Positions 640 to 61,248 of a DNA stretch of 64,000 bases are shown here, in pieces; the stretch's first letter is position 1; each line of letters starts with the position of its first letter. Source of the DNA: a bacterium (GTDB lineage Bacteria; Patescibacteriota; Patescibacteriia; UBA1558; GWA2-36-10). The notes below the pieces were generated by a model. That model saw only the letters and a program-made list of their open reading frames with translations, did not search any database and was not told where the DNA came from. Location of the stretch: NCBI GenBank assembly GCA_018653315.1, contig JABIAL010000016.1:3433-67432 (forward strand). The letters are read 5' to 3'. Position numbers and translations under genes: made by a program.

Positions 640-1332
640 ATGGGCATACAAAATATAAGTATTCTTATTATCAGTTCTCTTACCATATTGTTAGGATTTT
701 TGGTATTAAGAAAAAAATATAAAAATCCTGGTAATACATGGTATTTTTTAATGTGCCTTTTCGGTGGTGGTTGGGGAGTTATGAAAGCGATAGAGCTTTC
801 TTCAACGAGCGTCTATTGGCATGATTTTGTGTTTAAATTTGTTATGTTTTTTGGTATAATGGCACCATTGGCATATTTTATGTTAGCGTATAATTTTATT
901 TATAAAGTCAAAAATTTACCTAAAATATTATTATATTTCATATCTTCTGTTACTATAGTATTAGCTATTTTAAGTTTCGCGGGAGTATTAAAGTATGTTG
1001 ATGCTGCTATCATAGACGGTGTATTGTATAGAAATATTATTTTTTGGGATTATTTAATTTTTGTAGTTTACTTTTTTGTTTATGTATTCTTAGGACTTAT
1101 TATTTTGTTTAAAAAATATACCACAGCAGAAGGCACACATAAGAATCAATTTAGGTATTTAATAATCGGTACTGCTTTAACATTTTTGGTAACAGGCGTT
1201 GTAAGTGTAATTTTTTTATTGTTTAATAATTTTACATATGATTGGCTTGGCGCGATATTTTTGTCAATTCATTTATTGATTATTAGTCATTTTTTGTTTA
1301 TTAAACCAAAGATAGTCGCAAGTAGGGAGTGA
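640..1332 (+). CDS. polytopic membrane protein, standalone paralog of the N-terminal 7TM sensor domain of the downstream histidine kinase
   Basis: 230 aa with 6-7 hydrophobic helices. Blocks LGFLVLRKK, APLAYFMLAYNFIYK and LGLIILFKKYT...FRYLIIGTALTFL align with FGFFVLLKR, APLFLFFVFYFIYK and LGFILLIKKYT...IKYILIGTVISSL in the 2734..5547 protein. Confidence 0.6.
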   Translation: MGIQNISILIISSLTILLGFLVLRKKYKNPGNTWYFLMCLFGGGWGVMKAIELSSTSVYWHDFVFKFVMFFGIMAPLAYFMLAYNFIYKVKNLPKILLYFISSVTIVLAILSFAGVLKYVDAAIIDGVLYRNIIFWDYLIFVVYFFVYVFLGLIILFKKYTTAEGTHKNQFRYLIIGTALTFLVTGVVSVIFLLFNNFTYDWLGAIFLSIHLLIISHFLFIKPKIVASRE

Positions 1333-1338
1333 TATTTT

Positions 1339-2064
1339 ATGAAATATGAGTTAGAAGAAAAATTTTGGTTAAAGTATTTTAATGTTTATGATGCATTAGT
1401 TAATTTGATTCCTTACCAAAATGTTTTAGAAGACATTATATCTCTTTTGCCTAGTAAGAATTTAAAAATTTTAGAAACAGGATGTGGAACTGGTAATTTA
1501 ATTTTTTACATAGCTGATAATGTAAAGTATAAAAGATTAGTAGGAGTAGATTATTCTCTTGCGGCATTGACATTGGCTAATAAAAAAATAGAAAATAGAA
1601 AAAATATCATATTTAAATATGCTGACATAAGACAACATTTTGTATTTAAGGATGAAGAATTTGAAGTAATAGTTATGAATAATGTTTTGTATACATTGCC
1701 CGTTTCTAAGAGACAGGATTTAATACATGAAGTTTATAGGATGCTTAAACCAGGAGGTATTTTTATATTATCAAATATTAATATTCATTTTAAACCAATG
1801 TTGATATATAAAACACATATTTTAAAATCTATAAAAAAGAAAGGTTTCATTGTTACTATTACGCAGGTTTTTCAATTGATATATCCGACTGTAATGATTT
1901 TTTATTATAATTTTTTAATAAAAAAATCTAATAAGGGAGGTTTATATGATTTTATCAAACAAGGTGAACAGGCGGATTTATTGAGAAATAGTAAATTTAA
2001 AATAAATATTAATGATAAGCTAACTTATGCAGGAAGTGCATTTTTATCTAAAGGAACAAAATGA
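1339..2064 (+). CDS. class I SAM-dependent methyltransferase
   Basis: Motif I LETGCGTGNL, followed by a post-I acidic residue (VDYS) and motif II/III (LKPGGIFILS). The 241-aa length fits the family. Confidence 0.7.
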   Translation: MKYELEEKFWLKYFNVYDALVNLIPYQNVLEDIISLLPSKNLKILETGCGTGNLIFYIADNVKYKRLVGVDYSLAALTLANKKIENRKNIIFKYADIRQHFVFKDEEFEVIVMNNVLYTLPVSKRQDLIHEVYRMLKPGGIFILSNINIHFKPMLIYKTHILKSIKKKGFIVTITQVFQLIYPTVMIFYYNFLIKKSNKGGLYDFIKQGEQADLLRNSKFKININDKLTYAGSAFLSKGTK

Positions 2065-2747
2065 TTGTATTAAAAAAGTATAATGTTAATTGTCTTGGTA
2101 TAACAGACAATCTCTTAGTCTTTATTCCTAATACTTATATTGAAAAACAAAAAATGTATAAATTTCGATATAACGTTTATTTAAAAAAACATTATATTAC
2201 ACCAAACTTAGATATGTTGGATATAGATATTTATGACAAAGAAAATGGTGTAATATATATAAACGTATTTAGTGTTAAATTGAAAAAGATATTAGGTTCG
2301 GTAAGGATAATAACTAGACAAAATTTACCAATATTAAAAGATTGTTTTAATTTTAAAGAACCGCTTAGTATTAAATTATTTGCTAAACATAATATTGCTG
2401 AGTTGAGCCGCTTAATTATAATGCCATATACGAAAAATAAATTTTTACCTAGGCATTTAATATTAATCATTATGATAAAGGAGGTTTTACAGATACTTAA
2501 AGATAAAAAAATATTTTTTGTATATGCATTTATTAAAAGTAAATTATACTTTAAATTTAAAAAAATAAAATTGCCATTTTACAGCATCAAAAATTATAAT
2601 ATGAAATATAATGATGGTGTATTGAAAGAATATTTTAATCAAAAAAATGATCCGGTTTTACCTGTGTACTTTAATTATTTTTTTGTTAAATTATTTTTAG
2701 TACTTACATACGTAAAAATAAAAAAATATATAAATGTTATTGATTAA
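2061..2747 (+). CDS. GNAT-fold acyltransferase resembling autoinducer-synthase/FeeM-type N-acyl amino acid synthases (PF13444-like)
   Basis: The pattern F(R/K)YNVY...D.LD.D.YD......I.V......G.VRI.......LP.......F.......AELSRLII.PY matches the LuxI-like N-acyltransferase fold signature. The gene is translationally coupled to the MTase (ATGA overlap) and to the HK. Confidence 0.45.
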   Translation: MIVLKKYNVNCLGITDNLLVFIPNTYIEKQKMYKFRYNVYLKKHYITPNLDMLDIDIYDKENGVIYINVFSVKLKKILGSVRIITRQNLPILKDCFNFKEPLSIKLFAKHNIAELSRLIIMPYTKNKFLPRHLILIIMIKEVLQILKDKKIFFVYAFIKSKLYFKFKKIKLPFYSIKNYNMKYNDGVLKEYFNQKNDPVLPVYFNYFFVKLFLVLTYVKIKKYINVID

Positions 2748-5547
2748 TTTTTTATTACTAATTTCTTTTTTGATTAATCTTTTTTTTGGATTTTTTGTAT
2801 TATTAAAGAGAAAATCAGTAGATTATACCAGGTTAATTCTAGGCTTAATTTCAGTTGTAGTAGCCTTTTGGTGCCTTTCTTTATATCTTTATAGATTGAA
2901 TAGCGATGTTTTTCATATTGAATTGTGGGGTAAGATAGCACATATATTTGGTGCACTATTAGCACCATTGTTTTTATTTTTTGTATTTTATTTTATATAC
3001 AAGAATGTTATTAAGCGTATATTATTTAAAATAGTATTACCATCAATTTTATTTATTATAGTTGCTATATTATTATTGTTTACAGATTGGATCATAGGTG
3101 GTGGCTATGTGGTGAATAACGTTAATAATGTAGAATTATTTTTTGGATATTATATTTATATATTTTATTTGGTCATTCATTTTAATTTAGGTTTTATATT
3201 GTTAATAAAAAAATATACACATAGTAACGCATTAGAAAAAGAACAAATAAAATATATTTTAATAGGTACTGTTATTTCTTCATTGGGTGCTATAATTTTT
3301 GATTTAGTATATCCAATTTTTGTTGATTTTTCATTAAATTGGGTGGGTCCAGTTGTTACTATAACCATGGTAGTATCCATGGCATATGCTATCATTAGAT
3401 ATCGTTTAATGAATATTAAATTAATATTGGCACGTAGTATTCTTTATACCATTTTAGTTGGTACTGTGGCTAGTTTTTTTGCTTTTTTGCTTTTTTATAT
3501 TGGTCCGATATTATTTGGAGACACTAACAAAGGGCGTGTTATTAGCACTATTATTAGTTCTATTTTGATTGTTTTACTTTTGGATCCAATCAAGCGAGTT
3601 TGGGCAAAAATAACGGATAGTATTTTTTATAAAGATAAAATTAATTATCAACAAGTATTGCGTCATACTAGTGGTGTTATAGCCCGTGAGATTGATTTAG
3701 ATGATTTATTAGCTAATTTGACTAAGTTATTAGCTACAGAATTGAAGTTGAAACAAACCTTGGTGTTAATGCCAAGAGATAATAATTTCACTTTGATAGC
3801 GAGTTCAGCAGGAGTTAAATCACAGGTACAAATTACTAAACAGACCACTCAATATTTTGTTGATAACCATGGTTTTTTGATTACAGAAGAATTAATAAAA
3901 TTGCATGATGATTTTCATGATCAGAAAAAACAGCAGGAGTTAAATCATGTTATTCAGGAATTAGAACAAATTAAAGCAGAGATGGTGATTCCAATTGTTG
4001 AAGCAGATAAAACAGTAGCTTTGCTTGTTTTGGATCGTAAACTTTCTGGGGATATTTATGATAGTGCAGATATTGATTTTTTCAAGATTTTAGCTCCACA
4101 GATCGCTACGGCTATTGAGAAGTCTAAATTATATGAAGAAGTACAGGAATTAAACCGTGACTTACAAGCCAAGGTGGATGAGCGCACCAAGAGCTTAGAA
4201 CAGGCTAATGCAGATTTAGAATCGCGTAATCGTTATTTGACTACTATGCAGGTAATTCTAAATATGATTAGTCGTAGCTTAGATCTAAAAAAAGTTACCC
4301 AGATGATCGCCGATAGCATTGCTTCTGAGCTTGGCTATATTGGCGGTGTTTTAAGTTTTGTCAACGGCGATGGTAAATTACGAGTGAAGGCAGTAACACA
4401 GAATCATAAGGCCAAAACAGCTATAGATCTTTTGCCAGAAGATATATTTAAGTATAAAGCAGATTTAAAACATGGCTATAATCTAGGGGTGGATACTGTT
4501 TTGTCTGCTAAGATTAATTTTTCTCCCAAAATGACTGATTTTTTCTCACCGCCAGTTGATGAGGGAGTTATCGATAAAATTCAAGAACACCTTGGTGTAA
4601 AAACGATTATTGGCATTCCTATTTTTTCAGAAGATAAAATTATCGGTATTGTTCATTTTTTAGTCGCTGTAGAGAGAGAAAAAATTTCTTCTTTGGATAT
4701 TGAAATGATGACATCTTTGACCAATCAGGTAGGAATAGTTTCTCGTAATTTAGAGCTATACGAAAATTTACAAAAAGTAAATAAAGATTTACATGAAGCT
4801 AATACTCATCTAAAAGTTTTGGATAAAGCAAAGTCAGAATTTTTATCTATTGCCTCTCATCAATTACGTACGCCAATTTCCGCTATTAAAGGCTATCTAT
4901 CTATGATGATTGATGGTGATTTTGGTAAGATTCCAAATAATATCAGCAAATTAATTAGTGATTTATTTGAAAGTGCTTCTCGTTTAGCTAGAACTATTAA
5001 TGTCTTTTTAAATGTTTCTCGTATTGAAGCTGGACGTTTAAAATTAGATAAACATGCTGTGCAAATCGATACTATGGTTACTAGCGTTATCACTGAATTA
5101 CAAAATGCAGCTATTAATAAAGGCATTAAATTGAGTTATATAAAATCAAAGCAAGAAGTTCCCTTGATTTATGCAGATAATGATAAATTGCGAGAAGTAG
5201 TTTTGAATTTAATAGACAATGCTATTAAATATACTCCAAAAGGGTCAATAGAAGTTTTTTTAGAATTTAATGAGCAAGTTTTGACTTTTATTTCTCGTGA
5301 TACAGGCATTGGTATTCACACAGAAGAAGCACGGACTTTGTTTAGAAAATTTGTGCGTGGTGACGGAGTAGCTCAAATTCATACTGGCGGTTCTGGTTTA
5401 GGTTTATTTATTGCTCAGAAGATAGTCAAAGAGCATGATGGTCGTATTTGGGTAGAAAGCGAAGGCAAAGGTAAGGGTAGTGTTTTTAAATTTGAAGTAC
5501 CAATAGCAACTGAAAAGCAAATAGCTGACGCATCAGCCGAAGAATAA
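2734..5547 (+). CDS. sensor histidine kinase: N-terminal 7TM sensor domain, GAF domains, HisKA and HATPase_c
   Basis: Multi-TM N-terminus; H-box SHQLRTPISAIKGY; N-box LIDNAIKYT; G1 DTGIGI; G2 GGSGLGL. No response regulator gene lies adjacent. Confidence 0.85.
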   Translation: MLLINFLLLISFLINLFFGFFVLLKRKSVDYTRLILGLISVVVAFWCLSLYLYRLNSDVFHIELWGKIAHIFGALLAPLFLFFVFYFIYKNVIKRILFKIVLPSILFIIVAILLLFTDWIIGGGYVVNNVNNVELFFGYYIYIFYLVIHFNLGFILLIKKYTHSNALEKEQIKYILIGTVISSLGAIIFDLVYPIFVDFSLNWVGPVVTITMVVSMAYAIIRYRLMNIKLILARSILYTILVGTVASFFAFLLFYIGPILFGDTNKGRVISTIISSILIVLLLDPIKRVWAKITDSIFYKDKINYQQVLRHTSGVIAREIDLDDLLANLTKLLATELKLKQTLVLMPRDNNFTLIASSAGVKSQVQITKQTTQYFVDNHGFLITEELIKLHDDFHDQKKQQELNHVIQELEQIKAEMVIPIVEADKTVALLVLDRKLSGDIYDSADIDFFKILAPQIATAIEKSKLYEEVQELNRDLQAKVDERTKSLEQANADLESRNRYLTTMQVILNMISRSLDLKKVTQMIADSIASELGYIGGVLSFVNGDGKLRVKAVTQNHKAKTAIDLLPEDIFKYKADLKHGYNLGVDTVLSAKINFSPKMTDFFSPPVDEGVIDKIQEHLGVKTIIGIPIFSEDKIIGIVHFLVAVEREKISSLDIEMMTSLTNQVGIVSRNLELYENLQKVNKDLHEANTHLKVLDKAKSEFLSIASHQLRTPISAIKGYLSMMIDGDFGKIPNNISKLISDLFESASRLARTINVFLNVSRIEAGRLKLDKHAVQIDTMVTSVITELQNAAINKGIKLSYIKSKQEVPLIYADNDKLREVVLNLIDNAIKYTPKGSIEVFLEFNEQVLTFISRDTGIGIHTEEARTLFRKFVRGDGVAQIHTGGSGLGLFIAQKIVKEHDGRIWVESEGKGKGSVFKFEVPIATEKQIADASAEE

Positions 5548-8509: not shown

Positions 8510-10087
8510 ATGCCTAAAAATATAAAAAATAAAACAACAAATACACCATTAGTTTTGGTTATTTTGGATGGTTGGGGTTTATGGAAAGAAACAGAAGGCA
8601 ATGCCATTGCTCAAGCCAAGACGCCGGTAATGGATGGCTTGTATAAGCAATATCCTCATACAAAAATAAATGCTTCAGAAAAAGAAGTTGGTTTATCTAA
8701 GAACCAGCCAGGAAATTCAGAAGCAGGACATATGAACATTGGTGCGGGAAGAGTAGTTGAACAAGATTCTATTAGTATTTCTAAGAGCATCAATAATGGT
8801 ACTTTTTTTAAGAATCCAGCTTTTTTGCAAGCAGCTACTCAGGTTACTAAAAATAAATCAGATATTCATCTAATTGGCTTACTATCTGATAAGTCTAGTC
8901 CACATGCTGATAATGATCATATTTTGTCCTTGTTAAGTTTTTTTGTAAATAAAACAGATCGTAATATTTATTTGCATTTGTTTACTGATGGTCGTGATAG
9001 TCCGCAATTTGCAGCTGCTCGTATTTTGGAAAAATATAAAATTATTTTTGATCGCAAACGAATAAAGATAGCTACTATTATGGGTCGTTTTTACGCCATG
9101 GATCGTAAAAAGACTTGGGATCGAACTGAGACTGCCTATAAGGCTATGGTTTTAGGTCAAGGCATAGAAGTGGAAAGTGCATCAGAAGCTGTTAATCAAG
9201 CCTATAATAGAGGAGAGAGCGATGAGTTTATTCAGCCAACTGTTATTGTTAAAAATAAAAAACCAATAGCCACTATAAAAGATAAAGACGCAGTAATATT
9301 CTTTAATTTGCGTTCAGATCGAGCACGACAATTAGCCAAGGTATTTGCTCAAACTAATTTTGAAAAGAAAAATAAAGGAGCTTTTAAACCCAAGAAAAAA
9401 TTTAAGAATTTATTATTTGTAGCTTTGACTGATTTTGGTCCTGATTTGGATAATATCTTAACTGCTTTCCCGGGTATTGATATACCAGAGACATTGCCAT
9501 TTACCTTGCGTGATTTACGTCAATTATATATTGCTGAAACAGAAAAATATGCCCATGTTACTTATTTTTTTAACGGTGGTTATGACCATGTGATAGCCGG
9601 TGAGGACAGAGTAGAAATTCCATCAAAGGATGTTGATTCTTATTCTACAGTGCCCGCTATGAGCACCAAGGAGGTTAATATACATGTTAGGAAAGTCATT
9701 AAGGAAGATAAATATGATTTTATTTGTGTAAATTTTGCTAGCCCAGATATGGTTGCTCATACAGGTGATTTGGTAGCTGGTATAAAAGCAGTGGAAGTAG
9801 TTGATACAGAATTAGGCAAGTTGGTAAATACTGTTTTGAAGAAAAATGGCACTATTATTGTTACGGCTGATCATGGCAATATTGAAGAGATGATAAATTT
9901 AGAAACTAAAGAAATCGATACTAAGCATTCTATTAATCCGGTGCCTTTGATTGTAATAAATCATATAAAATATAAATTAAGAAAAAATGGTAAATTAGCA
10001 GATATTGCACCTACCATTTTAGATATTTTAGACTTGCCAAAACCAAAATTGATGCAAGCAAAATCTTTAATAAAATCGAGAGTATGA
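8510..10087 (+). CDS. gpmI: 2,3-bisphosphoglycerate-independent phosphoglycerate mutase (copy 1)
   Basis: LVILDGWG, catalytic-serine motif PGNSEAGHMNIGAGR, FTDGRDSP and TADHGN. Confidence 0.9.
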   Translation: MPKNIKNKTTNTPLVLVILDGWGLWKETEGNAIAQAKTPVMDGLYKQYPHTKINASEKEVGLSKNQPGNSEAGHMNIGAGRVVEQDSISISKSINNGTFFKNPAFLQAATQVTKNKSDIHLIGLLSDKSSPHADNDHILSLLSFFVNKTDRNIYLHLFTDGRDSPQFAAARILEKYKIIFDRKRIKIATIMGRFYAMDRKKTWDRTETAYKAMVLGQGIEVESASEAVNQAYNRGESDEFIQPTVIVKNKKPIATIKDKDAVIFFNLRSDRARQLAKVFAQTNFEKKNKGAFKPKKKFKNLLFVALTDFGPDLDNILTAFPGIDIPETLPFTLRDLRQLYIAETEKYAHVTYFFNGGYDHVIAGEDRVEIPSKDVDSYSTVPAMSTKEVNIHVRKVIKEDKYDFICVNFASPDMVAHTGDLVAGIKAVEVVDTELGKLVNTVLKKNGTIIVTADHGNIEEMINLETKEIDTKHSINPVPLIVINHIKYKLRKNGKLADIAPTILDILDLPKPKLMQAKSLIKSRV

Positions 10088-11661
10088 ACAGACCACGTCC
10101 AGTTGTTTTAATAGTGTTAGATGGTTTTGGTTTGGCTCCACCGTCACGAGCCAATGCTATTTCTTTGGCTAAAACACCCAATTTTGATAAGTATATGAGT
10201 AATTATCCGGTCATGCCAGTATCTGCTGCTGGAGGAGCGGTTGGTTTAAATTGGGGTGAAATTGGTAATTCAGAAGTGGGTCATTTATCTTTGGGTTCTG
10301 GTACTATTTGTTACCAGAATTTGCCACGGATCACAAAGTCTATTTCCGAGGGTGATTTTTTTTCTAATGAAGCTTTTATTTCTGCTTGCAAACATGTTAA
10401 AGAAAAAGGGTCTAGTTTGCATTTGATGGGTCTGATGTCTTCAGGTGGTGTGCATAGTTTTAATGAGCATCTGTATGCTTTAGTAGAATTAGCTAAGAAA
10501 GAGAAAGTAGAGCGAGTTTATATTCATGCATTTTTGGATGGTCGTGATGTTCCTTATAGTAGCGGTCTAAATTTTATTGCTAAATTGCAGGAAAAATTAA
10601 AAATAATTGGCTTAGGTGCAATAGCTTCAATTAGTGGTCGTTTTTATGCTATGGATCGTGATAATAATTGGGATCGAATAGAGAAAGCATATCGGGCTAT
10701 TGTTGACGGCAAGAATGAAATAAAATATGAAGATCCAGTAGAGGCTATCAAAGCGTCTTATAATCAAGGTATCTATGATGAAGAATTTGTACCAACTGCT
10801 ATCGTTGACGACAGACAGCAGGCTAAAGGTAAGATTCAAGACGGTGATGGTATTATTTTTTTCAATTTTCGTTCAGATCGAGCACGACAATTAACCAAAG
10901 CCTTGGTTTTACCAGGGTTTGAAAAATTTAAATGTCAATATTTTCAAAACTTATTTATGGTTACTATGACAGAATATGAAAAAGATTTACCAGTAACCAT
11001 TGCTTTTCCGCCAATAGTAATAAAAACTCCATTAGCTAAGGTTATTGCTGATGCTGGTTTAAAGCAATTACATACAGCGGAGACAGAGAAATTCGCTCAT
11101 GTTACTTATTTCTTTAATGGTGGTAGTGACATAATTTTTGATAATGAAGACAGAGAATTAATACCATCTCCTCATGTGCCTTCTTATGATCAGAAACCAG
11201 CCATGTCGGCTAGAGAAATTACCAATAAATTAGTGCAGAAAATAAAAGAGGGGAATTATGATTTTATAGTAGTTAATTATGCCAATGCGGACATGGTCGG
11301 ACATACTGGTAATTTGAATGCTACAATTGAAGCAGTAGAGATTCTAGATAAATTAATAGGAGAATTAGTAGATACTATTTTATCTTATAATGGCGTGGCA
11401 TTAATCACAGCTGATCATGGCAATGCAGAAGTTATGTATGATTTACAAACAGGTGAAATCAGCAAAGAACATTCTAATAATCCGGTGCCGTTATTTGTTA
11501 TTGGACAGCAATTTGCTGGTAAGAGTGTCTTGCCTGGTTTGTCGGGTAGAGATCTAAGTCAAATAACGCCAGTAGGTGTATTGGCAGATATAGCGCCAAC
11601 TGTTTTGAAAATCATGGGATTGAAAAAACCAGCCAAAATGACTGGTAGTTCGTTAGTTTAA
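10084..11661 (+). CDS. gpmI: 2,3-bisphosphoglycerate-independent phosphoglycerate mutase (copy 2, tandem paralog)
   Basis: VLDGFG, IGNSEVGHLSLGSGT, FLDGRDVP and TADHGN. It overlaps copy 1 by 4 nt (ATGA) and is 525 aa, the same length as copy 1. Confidence 0.9.
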   Translation: MNRPRPVVLIVLDGFGLAPPSRANAISLAKTPNFDKYMSNYPVMPVSAAGGAVGLNWGEIGNSEVGHLSLGSGTICYQNLPRITKSISEGDFFSNEAFISACKHVKEKGSSLHLMGLMSSGGVHSFNEHLYALVELAKKEKVERVYIHAFLDGRDVPYSSGLNFIAKLQEKLKIIGLGAIASISGRFYAMDRDNNWDRIEKAYRAIVDGKNEIKYEDPVEAIKASYNQGIYDEEFVPTAIVDDRQQAKGKIQDGDGIIFFNFRSDRARQLTKALVLPGFEKFKCQYFQNLFMVTMTEYEKDLPVTIAFPPIVIKTPLAKVIADAGLKQLHTAETEKFAHVTYFFNGGSDIIFDNEDRELIPSPHVPSYDQKPAMSAREITNKLVQKIKEGNYDFIVVNYANADMVGHTGNLNATIEAVEILDKLIGELVDTILSYNGVALITADHGNAEVMYDLQTGEISKEHSNNPVPLFVIGQQFAGKSVLPGLSGRDLSQITPVGVLADIAPTVLKIMGLKKPAKMTGSSLV

Positions 11662-16172: not shown

Positions 16173-16191
16173 GAATTTTCAAAAATAAAAA

Positions 16192-16220
16192 ACAAGCTCG
16201 TAAATGAGCTTGTTTTTTTG
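16192..16220. terminator. bidirectional intrinsic terminator between rplL and the convergent 16229..18340 gene
   Basis: acaagctc-gtaaat-gagcttgt followed by ttttttt, with an A-run on the other side. Confidence 0.75.
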
Positions 16221-16228: not shown

Positions 16229-18340
16229 TTATTCATTAATAGCTAATAGATATAGATGATTACCATTGAGTAAATAAATAGCTTTTTCTTCTTGGTCTAT
16301 TGCTAGATCAACTAGATTATCAAATTTAAGTGAAGTGTATTGATCTTTGATGTTGCCTTCTTTGTCCAAAATAGCTACTCGTTGGTTATCTGGATCAATA
16401 ATATATAGATAATCAGAATCTGTGAATGTTTTGAGAATTGCTTTGGAGCCTAATTTTGGATGTGGTTGATGATAATTAAAAATATCCCGAGAGCCTTTGC
16501 GAAGTTTTAGTATTTGTCCGCTGTTAAACATGACGTACATATCGCCATCTAAAGTAAAACTATTAGCATCACTTAGATCAATATCATCTTGCAGCCAGTT
16601 AACGCCATTACTGAATGATTGACCACGTTCCGGGTATTTGAATATTTGGCTAGCTATAGTGTCTAACACGTATAGATTGTTGCTATAAATAGACATGTCT
16701 TGCACGCTAGTATTGCCGACACTTTGAGTAAAGCTAAATGAGTCTATTTGCTGATCATCTAAGTTAAAAATAACATATTCTTGATCGCCACTTATAATAA
16801 GTTGATTTTTATTTGGCCAATCAGCTAGTGTTTTTCCATTAGGATAACTAGTTAAAACACGTGGTGATTGTTCCTCGAGAATATATAAATTTTCTTGATC
16901 TAAAATATAAAATTGTCCGTCTTTTTGGACGATTTGTTTTGATTGATTAAGTTCACTAAGATCAAATAATTCCAAAGGAGAATCGACATAATTAATATGA
17001 CGAACTTTATTAAGCATGCGGACAGCTTGTTCTTTGGCGGTGTTTAGTTCTTCTTCTTGACTTGGTGAGCTAGACTCTAAGCTGTCTAGCATATCTTGAA
17101 TGTTTAGTAATAATTCTTCTGCTCTTTTTTCATCATCATAAATCAAACTAGCTTCTACTTCATTAAGACTATTATTGATTGCCTGAATTGATTTGTCATA
17201 GGCATCTTCTTGTTTGTTGATGGCTTGTTTTTGGGTTAAAAATACTAAACTTTGTAAAAATATCAATAACACAGCAATTACACTAATTAGTAACACTTTT
17301 TTTTGCCAGCTTAAATTACTAAACCAATTGACACGTTTGTTAATTGATTTTTGACTTGTTTGTAAGATGTTGCTTTCTCTGTCTTGTCGATATTGGCTAG
17401 AAAAGATAAATAGCCAAGCATTTTTGATATAGTGTCCAGTAGTAGTAAATATTTTAGCTACAAAATTAAAATATATTTTAGCAAATTGCCATATTTGAAC
17501 GAATATTTGAAAGATTTTGATATTTTTTAGACCATCTTTATCAAAAACAAGTTTAGTACGGGTTGATTTGCGATGTTTTGTTTTATGATCTTTTGTTTGA
17601 ATTGTACTCTGTGCTTCAATAATACCATCATTATCGTTATCATCGTCAGATTGTACGCTGATTTGTGTTTGTTCATTTGGTATATCTAAATCATGTCCAC
17701 TAGGGCGTTTGATTACTAATGAATTGAAAGTAACAAAATCAGGAACGGTGTCTAGTAGTTGTTTAAATTGGACAACTGCCGCTTGAGGGGTGTATTTTTT
17801 GATGATTCTTTTAATTTTTTCTTCGGAAATGTAATCAAATAAAGCGTTAGTAGATATAATTAAAGCATCTCCAGTGTCTAATTGACCAGAAACTATATCT
17901 GTAAAAATTTTGCTAGGATCAAAATCTGTATTTGCCTCTAGAATTTGAGTGGTCTGGTTACTGTGGATTAATAAACCGCCGACATTTCCAATGCTGGCTA
18001 AATAAACACTGTCTTGATGTATGATGCCAACAACAATATCTAGTGTTTGTAGCCAATTTTTAATTTTATGGGTATTTAATTCTGGTAAAATTTGGTTAAG
18101 TTCTTGTAAAATTTCTTCTAATAATAATTCTGGATCATCTTGAGGACTAGAAATAAAATGATGCGTTAAAGCCTCAATGATTTGGTCGATCATTGGTTGT
18201 TGATTGATTTTATTTTTAGGAGTTTCCAAGATTAAAAATAGTTGTCCACGCTCACTAGCATCACTAAAATAAACCTCGGATAATTCACGAGCATTTATGT
18301 GGTCATGTACAAAAAGTTTGTTATATTCTAAGTGAGACAT
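16229..18340 (-). CDS. membrane signalling protein: N-terminal degenerate PP2C-like domain, one TM helix, coiled-coil, C-terminal beta-propeller-like repeats
   Basis: 703 aa. The N-terminal domain has HQDSVYLASIGNVGG and GDALIISTNALFDYISEEKIKRI, which resemble PPM motifs (GDSRaYL..., GD.lllcSDGL...). TM segment VLLISVIAVLLIFLQSLVFL. The C-terminal half carries repeated YILD/YVLD/YIID/YLL blade-like units. Confidence 0.55.
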   Translation of the reverse strand: MSHLEYNKLFVHDHINARELSEVYFSDASERGQLFLILETPKNKINQQPMIDQIIEALTHHFISSPQDDPELLLEEILQELNQILPELNTHKIKNWLQTLDIVVGIIHQDSVYLASIGNVGGLLIHSNQTTQILEANTDFDPSKIFTDIVSGQLDTGDALIISTNALFDYISEEKIKRIIKKYTPQAAVVQFKQLLDTVPDFVTFNSLVIKRPSGHDLDIPNEQTQISVQSDDDNDNDGIIEAQSTIQTKDHKTKHRKSTRTKLVFDKDGLKNIKIFQIFVQIWQFAKIYFNFVAKIFTTTGHYIKNAWLFIFSSQYRQDRESNILQTSQKSINKRVNWFSNLSWQKKVLLISVIAVLLIFLQSLVFLTQKQAINKQEDAYDKSIQAINNSLNEVEASLIYDDEKRAEELLLNIQDMLDSLESSSPSQEEELNTAKEQAVRMLNKVRHINYVDSPLELFDLSELNQSKQIVQKDGQFYILDQENLYILEEQSPRVLTSYPNGKTLADWPNKNQLIISGDQEYVIFNLDDQQIDSFSFTQSVGNTSVQDMSIYSNNLYVLDTIASQIFKYPERGQSFSNGVNWLQDDIDLSDANSFTLDGDMYVMFNSGQILKLRKGSRDIFNYHQPHPKLGSKAILKTFTDSDYLYIIDPDNQRVAILDKEGNIKDQYTSLKFDNLVDLAIDQEEKAIYLLNGNHLYLLAINE

Positions 18341-18399
18341 TTTACATTTCTTTCAAATAATATTATACTATATTTAGTCTATTTAGTAAATAAATCAAT

Positions 18400-19005
18400 A
18401 TGCTTGAACAAATACTTGGTTCAACTATTCGTACAAAAATTATTAATTATTTTTGCTTGCATTTGGATGAGCAAATTTTTGTGCGTGAATTAACTAAGAA
18501 TTTAGGTGGCCAACTTAACTCTGTAAGACGAGAACTTGATAATTTGGTCAAATTTGGCTTGCTGAAATCCGAGATTAAGAAAGGTAAAAAGTCTTATTTT
18601 GCTAATAAAGACTTCGCTTTATTAAGTGAGTTGAAAAATCTAGTTTTTAAGGCAATTACCTTAGAAGAGATGCATATTGCTGATAAAATGTCTAAATTAT
18701 CTGGTCTTAGTTTGTTAATTTTTACTGGAAATTTGTCTAATATACCGACTAAGACCGATGTGTTGATCGTAGGTAAAGTAAAAAAGGCAGATTTCTATAA
18801 ATTTTTAGAGAAAATTGCTGAAGGGATGATAGAGAATTTACGCTATACCTTTATGTCTAAAAGTGATTATATCTATAGAGTGGAAATAACTGATAAGTTT
18901 ATTTATGATATTTTATCTCAAGAACATATTGTGATAGTTGATAAAATATCTAAAAATCTTAAGAAAAAACAATTAGATGAATTTGATTTTAAACATTTTA
19001 GATAA
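18400..19005 (+). CDS. winged-helix DNA-binding protein (putative transcriptional regulator)
   Basis: N-terminal wHTH-like segment (FVRELTKNLGGQLNSVRRELDNLVKFGLL). It is divergently arranged from the 16229..18340 gene. Confidence 0.45.
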   Translation: MLEQILGSTIRTKIINYFCLHLDEQIFVRELTKNLGGQLNSVRRELDNLVKFGLLKSEIKKGKKSYFANKDFALLSELKNLVFKAITLEEMHIADKMSKLSGLSLLIFTGNLSNIPTKTDVLIVGKVKKADFYKFLEKIAEGMIENLRYTFMSKSDYIYRVEITDKFIYDILSQEHIVIVDKISKNLKKKQLDEFDFKHFR

Positions 19006-19393
19006 TAATAGCGCTGAATGGATTTTGGTAGATGAGATAGAGAAAAAGCATCGATTTGCCATGCAGCAAGGCCAAGAAAATATTCTAGCTGAGCTAGATG
19101 TTTTTTTGGGTAAAGAAAAAGTAAAGTTAGGCGATATAGATGGTTTAGGTCTAGCTATAAAGCAAGCTAGCTTAACACAAGTTAAAGTACAGGTGACTAT
19201 TATCAATACCTTGGGTTGGCAATTAAACATATCCACAGTAGCTGATTTTTATTATAAAGATGACTTAAAGATAGAGGGTCTTGTAACTCAAATAAAGAAA
19301 CAAAAGCATTTTCAAGCAATTAAACCAGAATATCAGCGAGAAGCTGAAATAACGATAAGTAAAAAAACACCAAAATTTACTATAAGTAAATAA
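18977..19393 (+). CDS. short TsaB/YeaZ-like protein (Kae1/TsaD-fold N-terminal domain only)
   Basis: MNLILNILDNNSAEWILVD...ILAELDVFLGKEKVKLGDIDGLGLAIKQASLTQVKVQVTIINTLGWQLNI parallels the YeaZ N-terminus (M.ILAIDT....VALL....IL.......L....IDA.A...GPGSFTGVRIG...A.GLA..LN.). It is 138 aa and overlaps the previous ORF by 29 nt. Confidence 0.35.
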   Translation: MNLILNILDNNSAEWILVDEIEKKHRFAMQQGQENILAELDVFLGKEKVKLGDIDGLGLAIKQASLTQVKVQVTIINTLGWQLNISTVADFYYKDDLKIEGLVTQIKKQKHFQAIKPEYQREAEITISKKTPKFTISK

Positions 19394-19413
19394 ATTTAAT
19401 AAACATTATTTAG

Positions 19414-19440
19414 AAAACAGCTAAAGAGGCTGTTTTTTTA
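19414..19440 (+). terminator. intrinsic terminator
   Basis: aaacagc-taaagag-gctgttt followed by ttttt. Confidence 0.65.
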
Positions 19441-19459
19441 GTTTTCCACAGCATCTTGA

Positions 19460-19489
19460 TTGACACTGTGTATTATGGTGGAGTATAAT
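19460..19489 (+). promoter_or_regulatory. sigma70 promoter of the dcw cluster (TTGACA-18-TATAAT)
   Basis: ttgaca at 19460-19465 and tataat at 19484-19489. Confidence 0.55.
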
Positions 19490-24665: not shown

Positions 24666-24937
24666 ATTGACAATGCAGTATCTTTATGGTTTTCTTAATA
24701 TATTATTTGTTATAAAAATATCTTACGAAATTTAAATATTTTATGAAAATGGAAAGAATGTCTTTGGAGAATAATATAGACAATTTAGATCAGGAGGAGG
24801 TTATTGCTTCTGAAGAGGAGGTCGTTGTTGATCAAGCAGAAGTAGAAGTAAAAAAAGAAGAGTTAGAATTGAATCCGGAGAAATTGATAGCAGAAGAAAA
24901 GACATTGTTAGATGTATTTAGAGGAAGGTCTGCTGGT

Positions 24938-26365
24938 ATGGCAAAAGTGCTAACTTTAACTACAGCTTTAATACTTGGTTCAAAATTTGCTCAAGATGCT
25001 CATGCGGAAACACCAGAGACACAAGTCACAGAACAAACAGATGAACAAAAAGAGAAACAAGAGTTTTATAGTTTAGAATTTCGAGATGACGTTGAAAACC
25101 AATTAGATGTCATAGATAAGATAAAATTAATTCGTTTTGTAGTTGTCCATGATAATGAAACAGAGTCTATTATTTTTTCACCAGAAGAATTGCAAAATAA
25201 TCCAACTTTGAGTGTTGAAGGTTATGTTGCTAATGTAATGGTTCTTGGTGACGATGGAATAGAGGTTAGCTTGAATGGTCAAGGTAGTAAAAAAATTGAT
25301 AGAGATCACGATGAAGATTATTTGATACTAGGAGGAACATGTGTACATCCTGAAGAATTGCAGACAGATGAATACTCAGAGGATTTTTTTCATGATCTTA
25401 TAACCAAATCAGAACTTACAGCAGATGAACATGGGAGCACCTATTTGTCTGGAGGACATTATTTTGGACTAGCTACATCAATGGGTTATCTTGGGGAACC
25501 AGTAAACGATGATCAAAATAATATTCTTAAATTTAAAACAAATGATGGGACTTATTCATTTCCAATTAATCAGCATGTTTTTCAAGAATTTGAGCCAGAT
25601 AATATTGAAGACAGTGGAAGAGGTGGTGATTTAGTTTTTGAGTATTTGGGCAATCGTCCAGATCGTATCTCTAATGATGAAGGTGTAGATGAACACATAC
25701 AAGCAATAACTAATGCAATTACCAGAGTTGAGTCGATTTCAGGTTCAAATTTAATAGATAGGGTACGTTTTATAGATTATAATGCGGACAATGCTTTTGC
25801 TGCTCATTATGAAAAAGAGATGACATTTACAATGGATCATTTGGAAGGGAATGATGTTGAAGAAAGCGCAGCAACAGCTGAACATGAGATATTACATAAA
25901 TATGTTGATCAAAAGAAATTTACAGATGATCCAGAAATTAGAACTTTATTTGCAGATTTAAAGGGGTATACTAGTAATAAGAAAACAAGGATAATAAATA
26001 ATGGATGGATTCCTTTTGATGGATTTAATGAAGATTATGATAATAAAATCTTTTTTGATTTCATTGATGAAAAGAGTTTTCTTGGTAGAGGAGGAGGTCA
26101 TTCCAAAGATAATGTCTGGGAGTTTTGCACTTCTTTTATTCATTCCTTAATGTATTTAGATCGCTTAGATGATAATCTACAGGAAATTGGTGATGAAGAA
26201 GAACGTATGAGTGTTTTAGATAATTATATACATACTACTCAGGTTGTGTTAGACAATGTTAGAAATTTACCAGTGATTGGTAAACTTTATGACAACAGAG
26301 AAGAAAAGTTTTTAAAAGATAAATTAGAGCAGATGAAACAACTTAGAGGTAAATTAAATAAATAA
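24938..26365 (+). CDS. secreted hypothetical protein with a HExxH motif (candidate zinc metallopeptidase)
   Basis: Classical signal peptide MAKVLTLTTALILGSKFAQDAHA|ET with an RBS (gaggaagg, 9 nt upstream). HEILH sits in the mature part. The same frame stays open upstream to 24743, where an acidic 65-aa extension gives an alternative start. Confidence 0.5.
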   Translation: MAKVLTLTTALILGSKFAQDAHAETPETQVTEQTDEQKEKQEFYSLEFRDDVENQLDVIDKIKLIRFVVVHDNETESIIFSPEELQNNPTLSVEGYVANVMVLGDDGIEVSLNGQGSKKIDRDHDEDYLILGGTCVHPEELQTDEYSEDFFHDLITKSELTADEHGSTYLSGGHYFGLATSMGYLGEPVNDDQNNILKFKTNDGTYSFPINQHVFQEFEPDNIEDSGRGGDLVFEYLGNRPDRISNDEGVDEHIQAITNAITRVESISGSNLIDRVRFIDYNADNAFAAHYEKEMTFTMDHLEGNDVEESAATAEHEILHKYVDQKKFTDDPEIRTLFADLKGYTSNKKTRIINNGWIPFDGFNEDYDNKIFFDFIDEKSFLGRGGGHSKDNVWEFCTSFIHSLMYLDRLDDNLQEIGDEEERMSVLDNYIHTTQVVLDNVRNLPVIGKLYDNREEKFLKDKLEQMKQLRGKLNK

Positions 26366-41538: not shown

Positions 41539-42375
41539 ATGAAGAACTTGATTTTTTGGCTTTGGATTTTGGTGCTTTCTTTTTCAATTGTGCAAGCAGC
41601 TGAAATAAATGCATCGACTTCACTTGATGTTTATGGCTTTGCCAGTTTGAACGCTGAGACGAATCAGGAATTTGATTATAATTGGCGCTGGGCTCGTATT
41701 GGTTTCAAAGCTCATCCTTACAGTGAGACGCTATCGGATGATTTCATGGTCAGATTTGAGTACGATCTCAGCGCTTCGGCTATGAAGTATGCCTATGCGC
41801 AGTTCGATCGTGATTGGCGTGGCGGCAAAGCTTCACTATTAGCTGGACAATACCTCAATCCAATACAGTACTTCTATCCTGGACCAGCTGGTCTACCTTT
41901 GACGCGTTGGCCAGATGCTGAAGGAAATTTTTCGGTTTACTGTCCGGGAGCAGCGCTGTGGTATGACTTTAGTCTTTTTAACTTCAAGGCAGCTACCTTT
42001 GGTCAGGGTCAATTTGCCACTACTATGAGCTTTGGCTCTTTGGCAATGGGCTGGGAAGAAAGCGTTGGACACACCGTTGTTTTGGCTGGTGATTATCTGG
42101 GCAAGTACCTGGAAAATCTTTTTATCGGTTGGGCACATTTTGATGATGATGACTTAGGTCACGCTTTCTTTGTGCAACATCACTGGAAAATCTGGCATCC
42201 ATCATTGCAGTTGTATGCTCAGTATGATTTCGGTGATCAATTACCAGAGGCCTGGTTGACCGGTTTGTCCTGGTCCTACAGCAAGAATTCGTTTGCCAAG
42301 CTATTTTACGATGCTAAGGCAGGCGATTTGGAAGGAGGTGAACTGAAAGCAGAGATTACCTTTGCCTTCGAATAG
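41539..42375 (+). CDS. secreted aromatic-rich hypothetical protein (beta-barrel/porin-like composition), in a GC-rich island
   Basis: Signal peptide ...SIVQA|AE, alternating aromatic/Gly-rich strands, about 45% GC versus about 30% background. Confidence 0.5.
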   Translation: MKNLIFWLWILVLSFSIVQAAEINASTSLDVYGFASLNAETNQEFDYNWRWARIGFKAHPYSETLSDDFMVRFEYDLSASAMKYAYAQFDRDWRGGKASLLAGQYLNPIQYFYPGPAGLPLTRWPDAEGNFSVYCPGAALWYDFSLFNFKAATFGQGQFATTMSFGSLAMGWEESVGHTVVLAGDYLGKYLENLFIGWAHFDDDDLGHAFFVQHHWKIWHPSLQLYAQYDFGDQLPEAWLTGLSWSYSKNSFAKLFYDAKAGDLEGGELKAEITFAFE

Positions 42376-48713: not shown

Positions 48714-50003
48714 ATGGAACAAGTTTCAATCAAAGATTTGTCACAGTTTGTTGATCAAGAAGTAGAAATTAAAGCTTGGGTATCCAACTTTCGTTCATCT
48801 GGAAAGATTGCCTTTTGGCAATTAAGAGACGGGGCTGGTTTTGCTCAGGCTATTTTAAATTCAACAGATTTAGATGAAGTAAAATGGCAGGAAGCACAAA
48901 AAGTCACTTTAGAGACTTCTGTTAAAATTATTGGTAAAGTTTCTAAACATCCCAAAAAAGAAGAATATGAAATTCAAGTTACAGATTTTGAATTTTATCA
49001 GATAGCAGAGGAGTATCCTATTGCTAAAAAAGACCATGGTGTAGATTTTCTTTTAGATAATAGACATTTATGGTTACGTTCTTCCAAGCAATGGGCAATT
49101 CAAAGAGTACGTAATACTTTGATTTCAGCTACTTATGATTTTTTTAGAGAAAATGATTTTATTAAAATTGATTCTCCAATTTTGACGCCAAATGCTTGTG
49201 AAGGCACAACTGAATTATTTGAGTTAGATTATTTTGATAATACTGCTTATTTATCTCAAAGTGGTCAGCTTTATTTAGAAGCTGCAATTTTTGCTCACAA
49301 GAATGTTTTTGATTTCGGTCCAGTGTTTAGAGCAGAAAAATCTAAGACTCGTCGTCATTTGACTGAGTTTTGGATGATGGATGCAGAAATGGCTTTTATT
49401 GATTTAGCAGAAAACTTGCAAGTGCAAGAAGATTTAGTTCGCTTTATGGTGACGGCTGTTTTAGAGAAGAATAAAGCTGAACTTGAAATTTTAGAAAGAG
49501 ATATTAAACCTTTAGAAAATATTATTAAGCCTTTTTATAAAATAACATACACTGAAGCGGTAAATAAATTACAAGAATTAGGTTCAGATATTAAAGATGG
49601 AGCTGACCTGGGAGCTGATGATGAAACAAAATTAACCCAAGAATATGATAACCCAATTTTTATTACTCATTATCCCGCAGCTATTAAGTCTTTTTATATG
49701 AAAAGAGACGAGCAAGATGAAACAAAGGCTTTGTGTGCCGATTTATTAGCTCCTGAAGGTTATGGAGAGATTAGCGGTGGTTCACAAAGAGAAGATGATT
49801 ATAATGTTTTATTGAAGCGCATTAAAGAACATAAATTATCCGTTGAAGATTTTCAATGGTATTTAGATTTACGTAAATATGGTTCTGTGCCACATGGAGG
49901 ATTTGGCTTTGGTTTAGAGCGTATTGTTACTTGGGTTTGTGGTATTCAACATGTTAGAGAAACCATTCCATTTCCAAGAACAATTTATAGAATTAAACCT
50001 TAG
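48714..50003 (+). CDS. asnS: asparagine--tRNA ligase
   Basis: Class IIb aaRS with OB fold. Motif 2 FRAEKSKTRRHLTEFWMMDAEMAF is AsnRS-type. Motif 3 GGFGFGLERIV. 429 aa. It lies directly after tRNA-Asn. Confidence 0.85.
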   Translation: MEQVSIKDLSQFVDQEVEIKAWVSNFRSSGKIAFWQLRDGAGFAQAILNSTDLDEVKWQEAQKVTLETSVKIIGKVSKHPKKEEYEIQVTDFEFYQIAEEYPIAKKDHGVDFLLDNRHLWLRSSKQWAIQRVRNTLISATYDFFRENDFIKIDSPILTPNACEGTTELFELDYFDNTAYLSQSGQLYLEAAIFAHKNVFDFGPVFRAEKSKTRRHLTEFWMMDAEMAFIDLAENLQVQEDLVRFMVTAVLEKNKAELEILERDIKPLENIIKPFYKITYTEAVNKLQELGSDIKDGADLGADDETKLTQEYDNPIFITHYPAAIKSFYMKRDEQDETKALCADLLAPEGYGEISGGSQREDDYNVLLKRIKEHKLSVEDFQWYLDLRKYGSVPHGGFGFGLERIVTWVCGIQHVRETIPFPRTIYRIKP

Positions 50004-61150: not shown

Positions 61151-61248
61151 TATATATCATTCAGAGAATTGCATATATCGTATTTTCTGAGATGTGCACC
61201 TTAAAAAAAGAACAAGAACAAGAAAATAAAGAAAGAAGGAGAAAGAAA

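What the first reader, a model, noticed from the sequence alone, without database searches (positions are those of the whole stretch)
16229..18340. Transmembrane protein combining a degenerate PP2C-like cytoplasmic domain with an extracytoplasmic beta-propeller-like domain
The N-terminal domain (about 210 aa) resembles PPM phosphatase motifs: HQDSVYLASIGNVGG (compare aNvGDSRaYL) and GDALIISTNALFDYISEEKIKRI (compare GD.lllcSDGLtd.v...i..i). It appears to lack the metal-binding DGxGG and SDG aspartates, so it may be a pseudophosphatase. It is followed by one TM helix, a coiled-coil, and roughly six blade-like repeats containing YILD, YVLD and YIID. A PP2C-like domain with a TM and a sensor propeller is a receptor-type signalling architecture. 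It is divergently paired with a wHTH regulator gene (18400..19005).
Basis: partly seen in the sequence, partly recalled or inferred. Interest (0 to 1): 0.5.

Follow-up and report, generated by a model that had tools for sequence, protein, structure and literature searches.

The report
Membrane receptor with dead-phosphatase fold
This gene encodes a membrane-spanning protein of a large, unnamed family from ultra-small (Patescibacteria) bacteria and Chloroflexota, with a phosphatase-shaped domain inside the cell that has lost most of its catalytic residues and a six-bladed propeller outside, so it probably acts as a sensor or scaffold rather than an enzyme.

Summary

- **Catalytic set is degenerate:** PstP D38 aligns to E39, D118 to N119, D191 to N165 and D229 to D201. 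Across 126 diverged relatives only 4 keep three acidic ligands.
- **Middle region:** a disordered linker, two amphipathic helices, one TM helix (347-368, N-in by charge) and a helical stalk.

The family is large: 2,269 clusters at 50% identity, nearly all 690-790 aa. It is found in Patescibacteria and Anaerolineae, always labelled "hypothetical", with no Pfam or NCBIfam model.

In Patescibacteria the gene lies between rplJ-rplL and the dcw cluster. It is divergently paired with a wHTH gene through two overlapping promoters whose hexamers are invariant in 22 loci.

Most likely it is a non-catalytic receptor or scaffold linked to the cell envelope. An active PstP-like phosphatase is not excluded for the close subfamily. 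It is a new variant of known kinds, of moderate interest.

The parts
17693..18340 (-). Residues 1-216: cytoplasmic PP2C/PPM-fold domain without a flap and with a degenerate metal site (E39, N119, N165, D201 at the positions of PstP D38, D118, D191, D229)
17543..17692 (-). Residues 217-266: disordered linker of variable length, acidic then basic
   Evidence: pLDDT below 50 for residues 222-266. The region is gap-rich and unconserved in alignment A1.
17318..17542 (-). Residues 267-341: two long juxtamembrane helices. The first (275-313) is hydrophobic-amphipathic and probably membrane-surface associated
   Evidence: DSSP helices 275-313 and 315-341. Eisenberg mean hydrophobicity 0.34-0.45 with hydrophobic moment 0.37-0.44, and below the TM threshold in Kyte-Doolittle.
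17237..17302 (-). Residues 347-368: the single transmembrane helix, oriented N-in/C-out
   Evidence: It is the only 19-residue window with Kyte-Doolittle above 1.4. Across 48 homologues the mean net charge is +2.9 in the 20 residues before it and 0.0 after it.
17003..17236 (-). Residues 369-446: extracytoplasmic helical stalk. The TM helix continues to residue 400, followed by helices 404-420 and 426-446
   Evidence: DSSP of the full-length model, pLDDT 82-93.
16232..16975 (-). Residues 456-703: extracytoplasmic six-bladed NHL-type beta-propeller. Each blade has a hYhh(D/N) second strand, and strand 456-460 probably closes the last blade
18362..18390 (-). Promoter-like site of the target gene: TTTACT, 17 nt, TATAAT
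   Evidence: Consensus scan. Both hexamers are invariant in 22 orthologous loci while the spacer varies.
18341..18369 (+). Promoter-like site of the wHTH operon: TTTACA, 17 nt, TATACT. Its -10 box overlaps the target's -10 box at 18364-18367
   Evidence: Consensus scan. Invariant blocks TATAGTATAATAT and GTAA in alignment A5.
16187..16218 (.). Bidirectional terminator-like hairpin between the convergent rplL gene and the target gene
   Evidence: Terminator scan, 13-14 bp stem with T-runs on both strands.
18400..19005 (+). Divergent partner gene: 201-aa protein with an N-terminal ArsR/MarR-type winged helix and an uncharacterised C-terminal domain
   Evidence: It lies divergently adjacent to the target in 38 of 39 Patescibacteria loci, including those where the target is only 25-35% identical.

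Best explanation
The gene encodes a bitopic (N-in, C-out) membrane protein of a large, unnamed family found in Patescibacteria and Anaerolineae.

**Shown:**
- A cytoplasmic domain with a PP2C-phosphatase fold.
- A flexible linker and amphipathic juxtamembrane helices.
- One TM helix and an extracytoplasmic helical stalk.
- A six-bladed NHL-type propeller of the kind M. tuberculosis PknD uses as its extracellular sensor.
- The residues that bind the two catalytic metals in real PP2C enzymes are not conserved across the family.

**Inferred:**
- The PP2C-like domain is a pseudoenzyme. It docks or allosterically controls a cytoplasmic partner rather than dephosphorylating it.
- The highly conserved propeller binds a conserved extracytoplasmic ligand or partner, most plausibly a component of the cell's own envelope.
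- The protein couples the two sides of the membrane, either as a receptor or as a positional scaffold.
- In Patescibacteria its transcription is tied to that of a divergent wHTH/TsaB-like operon through overlapping promoters.
For: - **Fold assignments:**
- **Degenerate site in the query:** E39, N119, N165 and D201 stand at the positions of PstP D38, D118, D191 and D229.
- **Degenerate site in 126 diverged representatives:** position 39 is acidic in 84%, position 165 in 29% and position 201 in 6%. All three are acidic in only 4 of 126. In the close subfamily the figure is 7 of 48.
- **What stays invariant in the N-domain:** the PP2C scaffold motifs (E75, N82, G118, K144, F146, G152, D169, Y170, K175).
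- **Propeller conservation:** the propeller is the most conserved part. That argues for a conserved ligand rather than a variable host surface.
- **Topology:**
- **Envelope-related neighbourhoods in two phyla:** UppP/BacA, ManC, MltG, then mraZ-rsmH-ftsL-ftsI-murE in Patescibacteria. An LCP ligase directly downstream in two Chloroflexota genomes, with an M23 peptidase further downstream in one of them.
- **No signalling partners nearby:** no Hanks kinase, FHA or canonical PP2C among any ORF of at least 110 aa in the 64-kb window.
Against: - **No direct evidence:** nothing here identifies a ligand, a partner or signalling.
- **Site not empty:** the query and its close relatives keep an acidic residue at two of the three core ligand positions (E39, D201). 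They also keep an invariant Arg (R18) that may correspond to the phosphate-binding R20 of PstP. Residual metal binding or activity is therefore possible.
- **Unresolved alignment:** the first 64 residues (RxxNED region) could not be aligned reliably.
- **Incomplete kinase census:** only a 64-kb window was examined, not the whole genome.
- **Weak neighbourhood evidence:** one Chloroflexota locus (L044) shows no envelope context.
Confidence: 0.55

Rival explanations
1. It is an active receptor-type Ser/Thr (PPM) phosphatase, a functional analogue of mycobacterial PstP. It would use an altered metal site (E39, N165, D201 plus backbone or water ligands), with activity controlled by the extracytoplasmic propeller.
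For: The architecture matches PstP: a cytoplasmic PP2C domain, a juxtamembrane region, one TM helix and an extracellular domain (PMC3052367). The fold match to active bacterial PP2Cs is very strong. In the close subfamily E39 is present in 47 of 48 sequences, D201 is Asp in 42 of 48 (Asp or Glu in 45), and D13 and R18 are invariant. Seven of 48 even have Asp at position 165.
Against: Positions 165 and 201 drift freely among orthologues that keep the whole architecture, and only 4 of 126 have all three acidic ligands. The glycine-rich DGxGG loop is replaced by E-(T/L/I)-P-K, the GDSR Asp is lost, and the flap is largely deleted. In PstP, single substitutions of D38 or D229 remove more than 90% of activity (PMC3052367). 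No kinase or FHA gene lies in the window.
Confidence: 0.22
2. The propeller is the working part, acting as an extracytoplasmic enzyme. Six-bladed propellers include lactonases, phytases, DFPase and PAL. In this reading the PP2C-like domain is only an anchor or a relic.
Against: The best matches are non-enzymatic NHL binding domains (Brat, Mei-P26, PknD sensor, TRIM2/71). The invariant residues fall in the repeat-scaffold pattern (hYhhD..N.R..h.d..G; R654, K660, G662) rather than in a recognisable metal-ligand set. The cytoplasmic domain is itself under strong constraint (65% mean column identity in A2), which an anchor or relic would not need.
Confidence: 0.08
3. The propeller is an adhesin or host sensor used by episymbiotic Patescibacteria to recognise their host cell.
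For: Cultivated Patescibacteria are episymbionts (abstract of PMC11623550, listed). The domain is surface-exposed and carried on a stalk.
Against: The propeller is the most conserved part across very diverse lineages, whereas host-recognition modules usually diversify. Full-length homologues occur in Anaerolineae genomes of 2-4.5 Mb, which are much larger than Patescibacteria genomes and, by inference, probably not episymbionts.
Confidence: 0.07

Closest known systems
PstP (Rv0018c), the membrane PP2C phosphatase of Mycobacterium tuberculosis
   Different: PstP has the full ligand set (D38, D118, D191, D229) and three Mn2+ ions. Here these positions are E39, N119, N165 and D201, and they are not conserved family-wide. 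PstP's 191-aa extracellular domain was not among the propeller matches found here. PstP sits in an operon with pknA/pknB and FHA genes (from established knowledge), and none were found in this window.
Extracellular sensor domain of the Ser/Thr kinase PknD (PDB 1RWI)
   Different: The cytoplasmic module of PknD is a Hanks kinase, whereas here it is a PP2C-fold domain. Here a stalk of about 80 helical residues separates the membrane from the propeller. Sequence identity is only 13%.
PP2C-fold pseudophosphatases (eukaryotic TAB1; C-terminal domain of the adaptor RssB)
   Different: Those proteins are soluble and have no TM helix or propeller. There is no detectable sequence relationship beyond the fold.
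Stp1/PrpC/PppA-type soluble bacterial PP2C phosphatases
   Different: They are active metalloenzymes with DGMGG, GDSR, SDG and DN motifs and a flap. They are not membrane receptors.
SpoIIE of Bacillus subtilis
   Different: SpoIIE has ten N-terminal TM helices and a C-terminal, active PP2C domain. It has no extracytoplasmic propeller.

Membership tests
PPM/PP2C protein phosphatases | PP2C fold (central beta-sandwich flanked by helix pairs) | tested here: met
PPM/PP2C protein phosphatases | Conserved acidic metal ligands (Asp of DGxGG, Asp of SDG, Asp of the C-terminal DN motif; in bacteria also the GDSR Asp) | tested here: not met
   The query has E39, N165, D201 and N119 at these positions. 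Across 126 representatives, 4 have all three core positions acidic. Position 165 is Asp in 4 and position 201 is Asp in 3.
PPM/PP2C protein phosphatases | Score above the curated cut-off of a PP2C-family HMM (Pfam PP2C/PP2C_2/SpoIIE, NCBIfam Stp1) | tested here: not met
   SpoIIE 13.5 bits vs 25. Stp1_PP2C_phos 21.1 bits vs 230. A Chloroflexota homologue scores 17.0 bits vs 20.3 on PF00481.
PPM/PP2C protein phosphatases | Mn2+/Mg2+-dependent phospho-Ser/Thr hydrolysis | not testable with these tools
   This needs an enzyme assay and metal analysis of the recombinant 1-216 domain.
NHL-repeat six-bladed beta-propellers | Six four-stranded blades forming a closed propeller | tested here: met
NHL-repeat six-bladed beta-propellers | NHL repeat sequence signature recognised by family HMMs | tested here: inconclusive
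   There is no Pfam NHL hit. The family profile reaches Brat only at E 0.057-0.074 over residues 641-664, and reaches designed PQQ-like propellers at E 2.6e-6. Distant members give sub-threshold DUF5128 '6-bladed beta-propeller' hits.
PstP-like receptor-type PP2C | Cytoplasmic PP2C domain, single TM helix, extracytoplasmic domain | tested here: met
   PstP architecture from PMC3052367.
PstP-like receptor-type PP2C | Genomic linkage to Hanks kinases and FHA proteins | tested here: not met
   No Pkinase or FHA hit in any ORF of at least 110 aa in the window, nor in the called genes of the homologous loci. The whole genome was not examined.
PknD-type receptor kinases | Cytoplasmic Hanks-type kinase domain | tested here: not met
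   The cytoplasmic domain has a PP2C fold. There is no Pkinase match.

The most novel reading that the evidence does not exclude
This could be an ancient class of bacterial transmembrane receptor in which a catalytically dead PP2C-fold domain is the cytoplasmic output. It would be shared by Patescibacteria and Anaerolineae. It would report the state of the cell envelope, sensed by an NHL propeller on a stalk, to the cytoplasm without any phosphotransfer, possibly acting on division or wall-synthesis machinery.
Probability: 0.3. Interest if true: 0.7.

Novelty: new variant of a known kind. Interest (0 to 1): 0.5.

Why it matters
Patescibacteria make up a large share of bacterial diversity, and most of their conserved proteins have no assigned function. 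This family is large (2,269 clusters at 50% identity) and keeps its architecture across very wide divergence. It sits at a fixed place next to ribosomal and cell-division genes, and no Pfam or NCBIfam model recognises it. Both folds are known, but this combination did not turn up in the paper searches run here: a PstP-like layout, a PknD-like sensor and a degenerate catalytic site. If the PP2C-like domain is a true pseudoenzyme output, the family would be a bacterial example of receptor signalling through a dead enzyme. It would also give a testable handle on envelope control in organisms that cannot be grown alone. Its presence in Anaerolineae offers organisms that may be easier to study, and it adds a shared character between Chloroflexota and Patescibacteria.

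Tried and rejected
- **AlphaFold database search:** the afdb50 library was not available, so annotated structural neighbours in UniProt could not be listed.
- **Literature:** searches for Patescibacteria with PP2C, propeller, pseudophosphatase or dcw found nothing on this family. The one paper mentioning a pseudophosphatase (PMC13622651) concerns a host-side actinobacterial system.
- **Taxonomy of distant members:** a cluster look-up of ten distant representatives gave almost no names.
- **RxxNED region:** the first 64 residues could not be aligned reliably to PstP. Local hhalign stops at residue 65, and the forced alignment is low-confidence. E39 = D38 therefore rests on that weak alignment plus the strand/helix register. 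The equivalents of R20 and D25 are left open.
- **My own correction:** I first paired T164 with the SDG aspartate. Recounting both the HMMER and the hhalign alignments shows the aspartate aligns to N165 and the serine to T164.
- **Extra TM helices:** I considered that helix 275-313 forms additional TM segments. It stays below the hydropathy threshold and is amphipathic, with charges conserved in homologues. A re-entrant hairpin is not excluded and would not change the topology.
- **wHTH operator:** I considered that the invariant 13-mer TATAGTATAATAT is an operator for the wHTH protein. It cannot be separated from the two overlapping -10 boxes it contains, so no operator is claimed.
- **Promoter significance:** promoter-like matches are not enriched in this AT-rich region (23 found vs 20 expected). 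Only the cross-locus conservation supports them.
- **t6A link:** a TsaB-like gene follows the wHTH gene in Patescibacteria, and TsaD lies two genes downstream in one Chloroflexota locus. This is recorded as an observation, not used as evidence.

Full report
**Observation.** The window holds an ATG-initiated ORF of 703 aa at 16229..18340 on the - strand. The YILD, YVLD and YIID motifs are at 478, 557 and 646, with equivalent YVIF, YVMF and YLLN at 522, 602 and 689. The gene is real. A word-indexed search found 89 homologues, most of them full-length (about 680-725 aa), at 41-77% identity. All are from Patescibacteria/Parcubacteria-type assemblies, all are called 'hypothetical protein', and none has a precomputed Pfam domain. 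Single-sequence HMM scans give only sub-threshold hints: Pfam SpoIIE E 0.072 and NCBIfam Stp1_PP2C_phos E 1.8e-4 over residues 144-186.

**N-terminal domain: fold.** An AlphaFold2 model built from a 48-sequence alignment (A1) is confident outside the linker (mean pLDDT 83). The isolated domain 1-216 gives pLDDT 89 and pTM 0.86.
- The next 36 hits are also PPM/PP2C proteins: PppA, S. aureus Stp1, tPphA, PPM1K, PstP, SpoIIE, RsbX, the pseudophosphatase TAB1 and the RssB C-domain.
- Foldseek on the full model agrees (PstP E 2e-9).
- A profile of the domain (A2) reaches S. aureus Stp1 at E 3.5e-5.

The PP2C fold is therefore established.

**N-terminal domain: catalytic residues.** I recalled the PstP catalytic-domain sequence from memory. 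It proved 100% identical to PDB 2cm1 chain A. The tPphA sequence was read from the same output.
- HMMER and hhalign against PstP+tPphA (E 5e-4) agree on three pairs. The GDSR aspartate (PstP D118) aligns to N119. The SDG aspartate (D191) aligns to N165, with the serine at T164. The C-terminal PDNVT aligns to P200-D201-F-V-T, so D229 aligns to D201.
- In the low-confidence N-terminal extension of the alignment, and by strand/helix register, DGMGG aligns to E39-T-P-K, so D38 aligns to E39.
- D38 and D229 are Mn2+ ligands whose substitution removes more than 90% of PstP activity (PMC3052367).

The query thus keeps a Glu and an Asp at two core positions and has Asn at the third. Conservation is the decisive evidence. 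In the close subfamily position 165 is N, S, D, G or H, and only 7 of 48 sequences are acidic at all three positions. In 126 diverged representatives that keep the whole architecture, position 39 is acidic in 84%, position 165 in 29% and position 201 in 6%. All three are acidic in 4 of 126. What stays invariant is the PP2C scaffold: E75, N82, G118, K144, F146, G152, D169, Y170 and K175. The flap between the K-I-F motif and the GD strand is reduced to about 20 residues. The equivalents of R20 and D25 could not be assigned.

**Middle region and topology.**
- Residues 222-266 are disordered (pLDDT below 50) and variable.
- Helices 275-313 and 315-341 follow. The first is hydrophobic-amphipathic.
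- Residues 347-368 are the only segment above the transmembrane hydropathy threshold.
- That helix continues outside the membrane to residue 400, followed by helices 404-420 and 426-446.
- The mean net charge over 48 homologues is +2.9 in the 20 residues before the TM helix and about 0 after it. There is no signal peptide-like N-terminus. This places the PP2C-like domain in the cytoplasm and the C-terminus outside (inference from the positive-inside rule).

**C-terminal domain.** The model has 24 strands in six groups of four between residues 469 and 700. Strand 456-460 is in a position to close the last blade.
- Foldseek gives Lin41, Thin, Brat and TRIM71 NHL domains at E about 1e-10 to 1e-9.
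- The family profile matches designed propellers at E 2.6e-6.

**Family.** An exhaustive HMMER search with the N-domain profile finds 2,269 representative clusters (50% identity) at E of 1e-3 or better, and 1,164 at 1e-10 or better. Nearly all of the best 150 are 690-790 aa with the domain at the N-terminus. Distant members that I read keep the same order of parts. Full-length homologues also occur in Chloroflexota/Anaerolineae genomes with contigs up to 4.46 Mb. They are again unannotated and again have degenerate motifs.

**Genomic context.** The gene order around the target is:
- upstream on the + strand, uppP(bacA), manC-like, mltG, rplJ and rplL;
- the target, convergent with rplL;
- then wHTH, a TsaB-like ORF, mraZ, rsmH, ftsL, ftsI and murE.

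tblastn against the 39 loci that carry full-length Patescibacteria homologues shows wHTH divergently adjacent in 38. rplL-rplJ is convergently adjacent wherever the contig extends far enough. This includes loci whose target protein is only 25-35% identical.

The 59-bp intergenic region contains two overlapping promoter-like sites:
- TTTACT-17-TATAAT for the target on the - strand, at 18390-18362;
- TTTACA-17-TATACT for wHTH on the + strand, at 18341-18369.

Such matches are not enriched in this AT-rich DNA. In 22 orthologous loci, however, exactly these hexamers are invariant (TTTACT; TATAGTATAATAT; GTAA) while the spacers vary. This supports two face-to-face promoters with overlapping -10 boxes.

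A bidirectional terminator (16187-16218) closes the target. Another terminator (19412-19438) and a perfect TTGACA-18-TATAAT (19460-19489) separate the wHTH/TsaB-like pair from mraZ. The target is therefore probably monocistronic.

The wHTH protein gives ArsR/MarR-type matches over residues 5-72 only. Its C-terminal 130 residues are unassigned. ORF 18977-19393 is a truncated TsaB/YeaZ-like protein (profile vs 3r6m E 4.2e-6).

In two Chloroflexota genomes an LCP (LytR-CpsA-Psr) gene follows the homologue on the same strand. In one of them an M23 peptidase lies further downstream. A third Chloroflexota locus has no informative context.

**Mechanism.**
- **Shown:** the architecture and the non-conservation of the catalytic set.
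- **Inferred:** a non-catalytic cytoplasmic PP2C-like docking or allosteric module is coupled, through helices that could dimerise, to a propeller that binds a conserved extracytoplasmic ligand, probably related to the envelope. I put this at about 0.55.
- **Main rival (0.22):** a PstP-like active phosphatase with an altered site. This is most plausible for the close subfamily, which keeps E39, D201, D13 and R18.
- **Minor rivals:** an enzymatic propeller (0.08) and a host adhesin or sensor (0.07). The latter is disfavoured by the strong conservation of the propeller and by its presence in large Anaerolineae genomes.
- No Hanks kinase, FHA or canonical PP2C is encoded by any ORF of at least 110 aa in the window. 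A 64-kb window cannot settle this question.

**Comparison with what is known, and novelty.** In layout the protein resembles PstP. In its sensor it resembles PknD. In its degenerate site it resembles PP2C-fold pseudoenzymes such as TAB1 and the RssB C-domain. It fails the defining catalytic-residue and HMM-threshold tests for PPM phosphatases, so it should be filed as 'PP2C-fold, PPM-like' and not as a PPM phosphatase. It meets the structural test for NHL-type propellers, while the sequence-signature test is inconclusive. No curated family covers it, and the paper searches found no description. I rate it a new variant of known kinds with moderate interest (0.5). The interest comes from the size and depth of the family, its fixed genomic position and the pseudoenzyme-receptor idea. 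It is limited because both folds are familiar and the function remains inferred.

**Limits.** The afdb50 library was unavailable. The taxonomic range beyond the named assemblies is inferred from a few source names.

Noticed in passing
window 18341-18399: There are two face-to-face sigma-70-like promoters with overlapping -10 boxes, one for the target on the - strand and one for the wHTH operon on the + strand. Their hexamers are invariant in 22 loci whose proteins are only 41-77% identical, while the spacers vary. The predicted 5' ends of the two transcripts would overlap by about 20 nt.
   Followed up: partly
window 18977-19393 (+): This 138-aa ORF overlaps the 3' end of the wHTH gene by 29 nt. 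It is a truncated TsaB/YeaZ-like protein carrying only the N-terminal half of the fold (profile vs PDB 3r6m, E 4.2e-6). It follows the wHTH gene in most Patescibacteria loci. A TsaD-family domain or gene also lies near the homologue in a distant Patescibacteria locus (L046 3078-4676) and in a Chloroflexota locus (L042 2843-4054).
   Followed up: partly
window 18400-19005 (+), residues about 95-201: The C-terminal two-thirds of the wHTH protein is well conserved (invariant T109, G110, D120, V124, G125, R160, D165, F167, Y169) but matches no Pfam or PDB sequence family. By eye, the pattern 'LLIFTG...TDVLIVG' recalls a degenerate minimal nucleotidyltransferase motif. This was not tested.
   Followed up: no
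window 8510-10087 and 10084-11661 (+): Two tandem 525-aa paralogues of cofactor-independent phosphoglycerate mutase (iPGM_N + Metalloenzyme) lie next to pgk and eno. The same duplication is present in a related genome (L001).
   Followed up: partly
window 640-5547 (+): This is a cluster of four genes: a stand-alone HisKA_7TM membrane protein (640-1332), a SAM methyltransferase (1339-2064), a FeeM-like N-acyl amino acid synthase (2061-2747, E 3.6e-6) and a 937-aa 7TM-GAF-HisKA-HATPase histidine kinase (2734-5547). It may be a small signalling or lipid-amide module.
   Followed up: no
window 24743-26365, 41539-42375, 43417-45393, 45510-48314 (+): Four sizeable ORFs (540, 278, 658 and 934 aa) have no significant Pfam family. 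The two largest give only sub-threshold 'Cadherin-like beta sandwich' hints, so they may be surface proteins.
   Followed up: no
window 48714-50003 and 50234-51646 (+): Two adjacent class-II aminoacyl-tRNA synthetase genes of the Asp/Asn/Lys type (tRNA-synt_2 + OB anticodon domain), of 429 and 470 aa.
   Followed up: no
window 16187-16218 and 19412-19489: A 13-14 bp hairpin with T-runs on both strands sits between the convergent rplL and target genes. A terminator-like hairpin follows the TsaB-like ORF, and after it comes a perfect TTGACA-18-TATAAT upstream of mraZ.
   Followed up: partly
L043 6655-8136; L045 10293-11750 and 16088-17401: In two Chloroflexota genomes the homologue is directly followed, on the same strand, by an LCP (LytR_cpsA_psr + LytR_C) gene and a PPC-domain protein. 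In one genome a Tricorn/PD40 propeller protein and an M23 peptidase follow as well.
   Followed up: partly
loci L004, L008-L010, L020-L024 and others (record titles): Many MAG records that carry clear Patescibacteria-type loci (same synteny, 41-77% identity) are titled 'uncultured Gammaproteobacteria bacterium'. These are most likely placeholder or wrong taxonomic labels in the deposited assemblies.
   Followed up: no
window 61192-62667 (+): A 491-aa ORF has a weak, sub-threshold bacteriorhodopsin-like match (E 8e-4, 19.3 bits vs cut-off 24.6) over residues 14-98.
   Followed up: no
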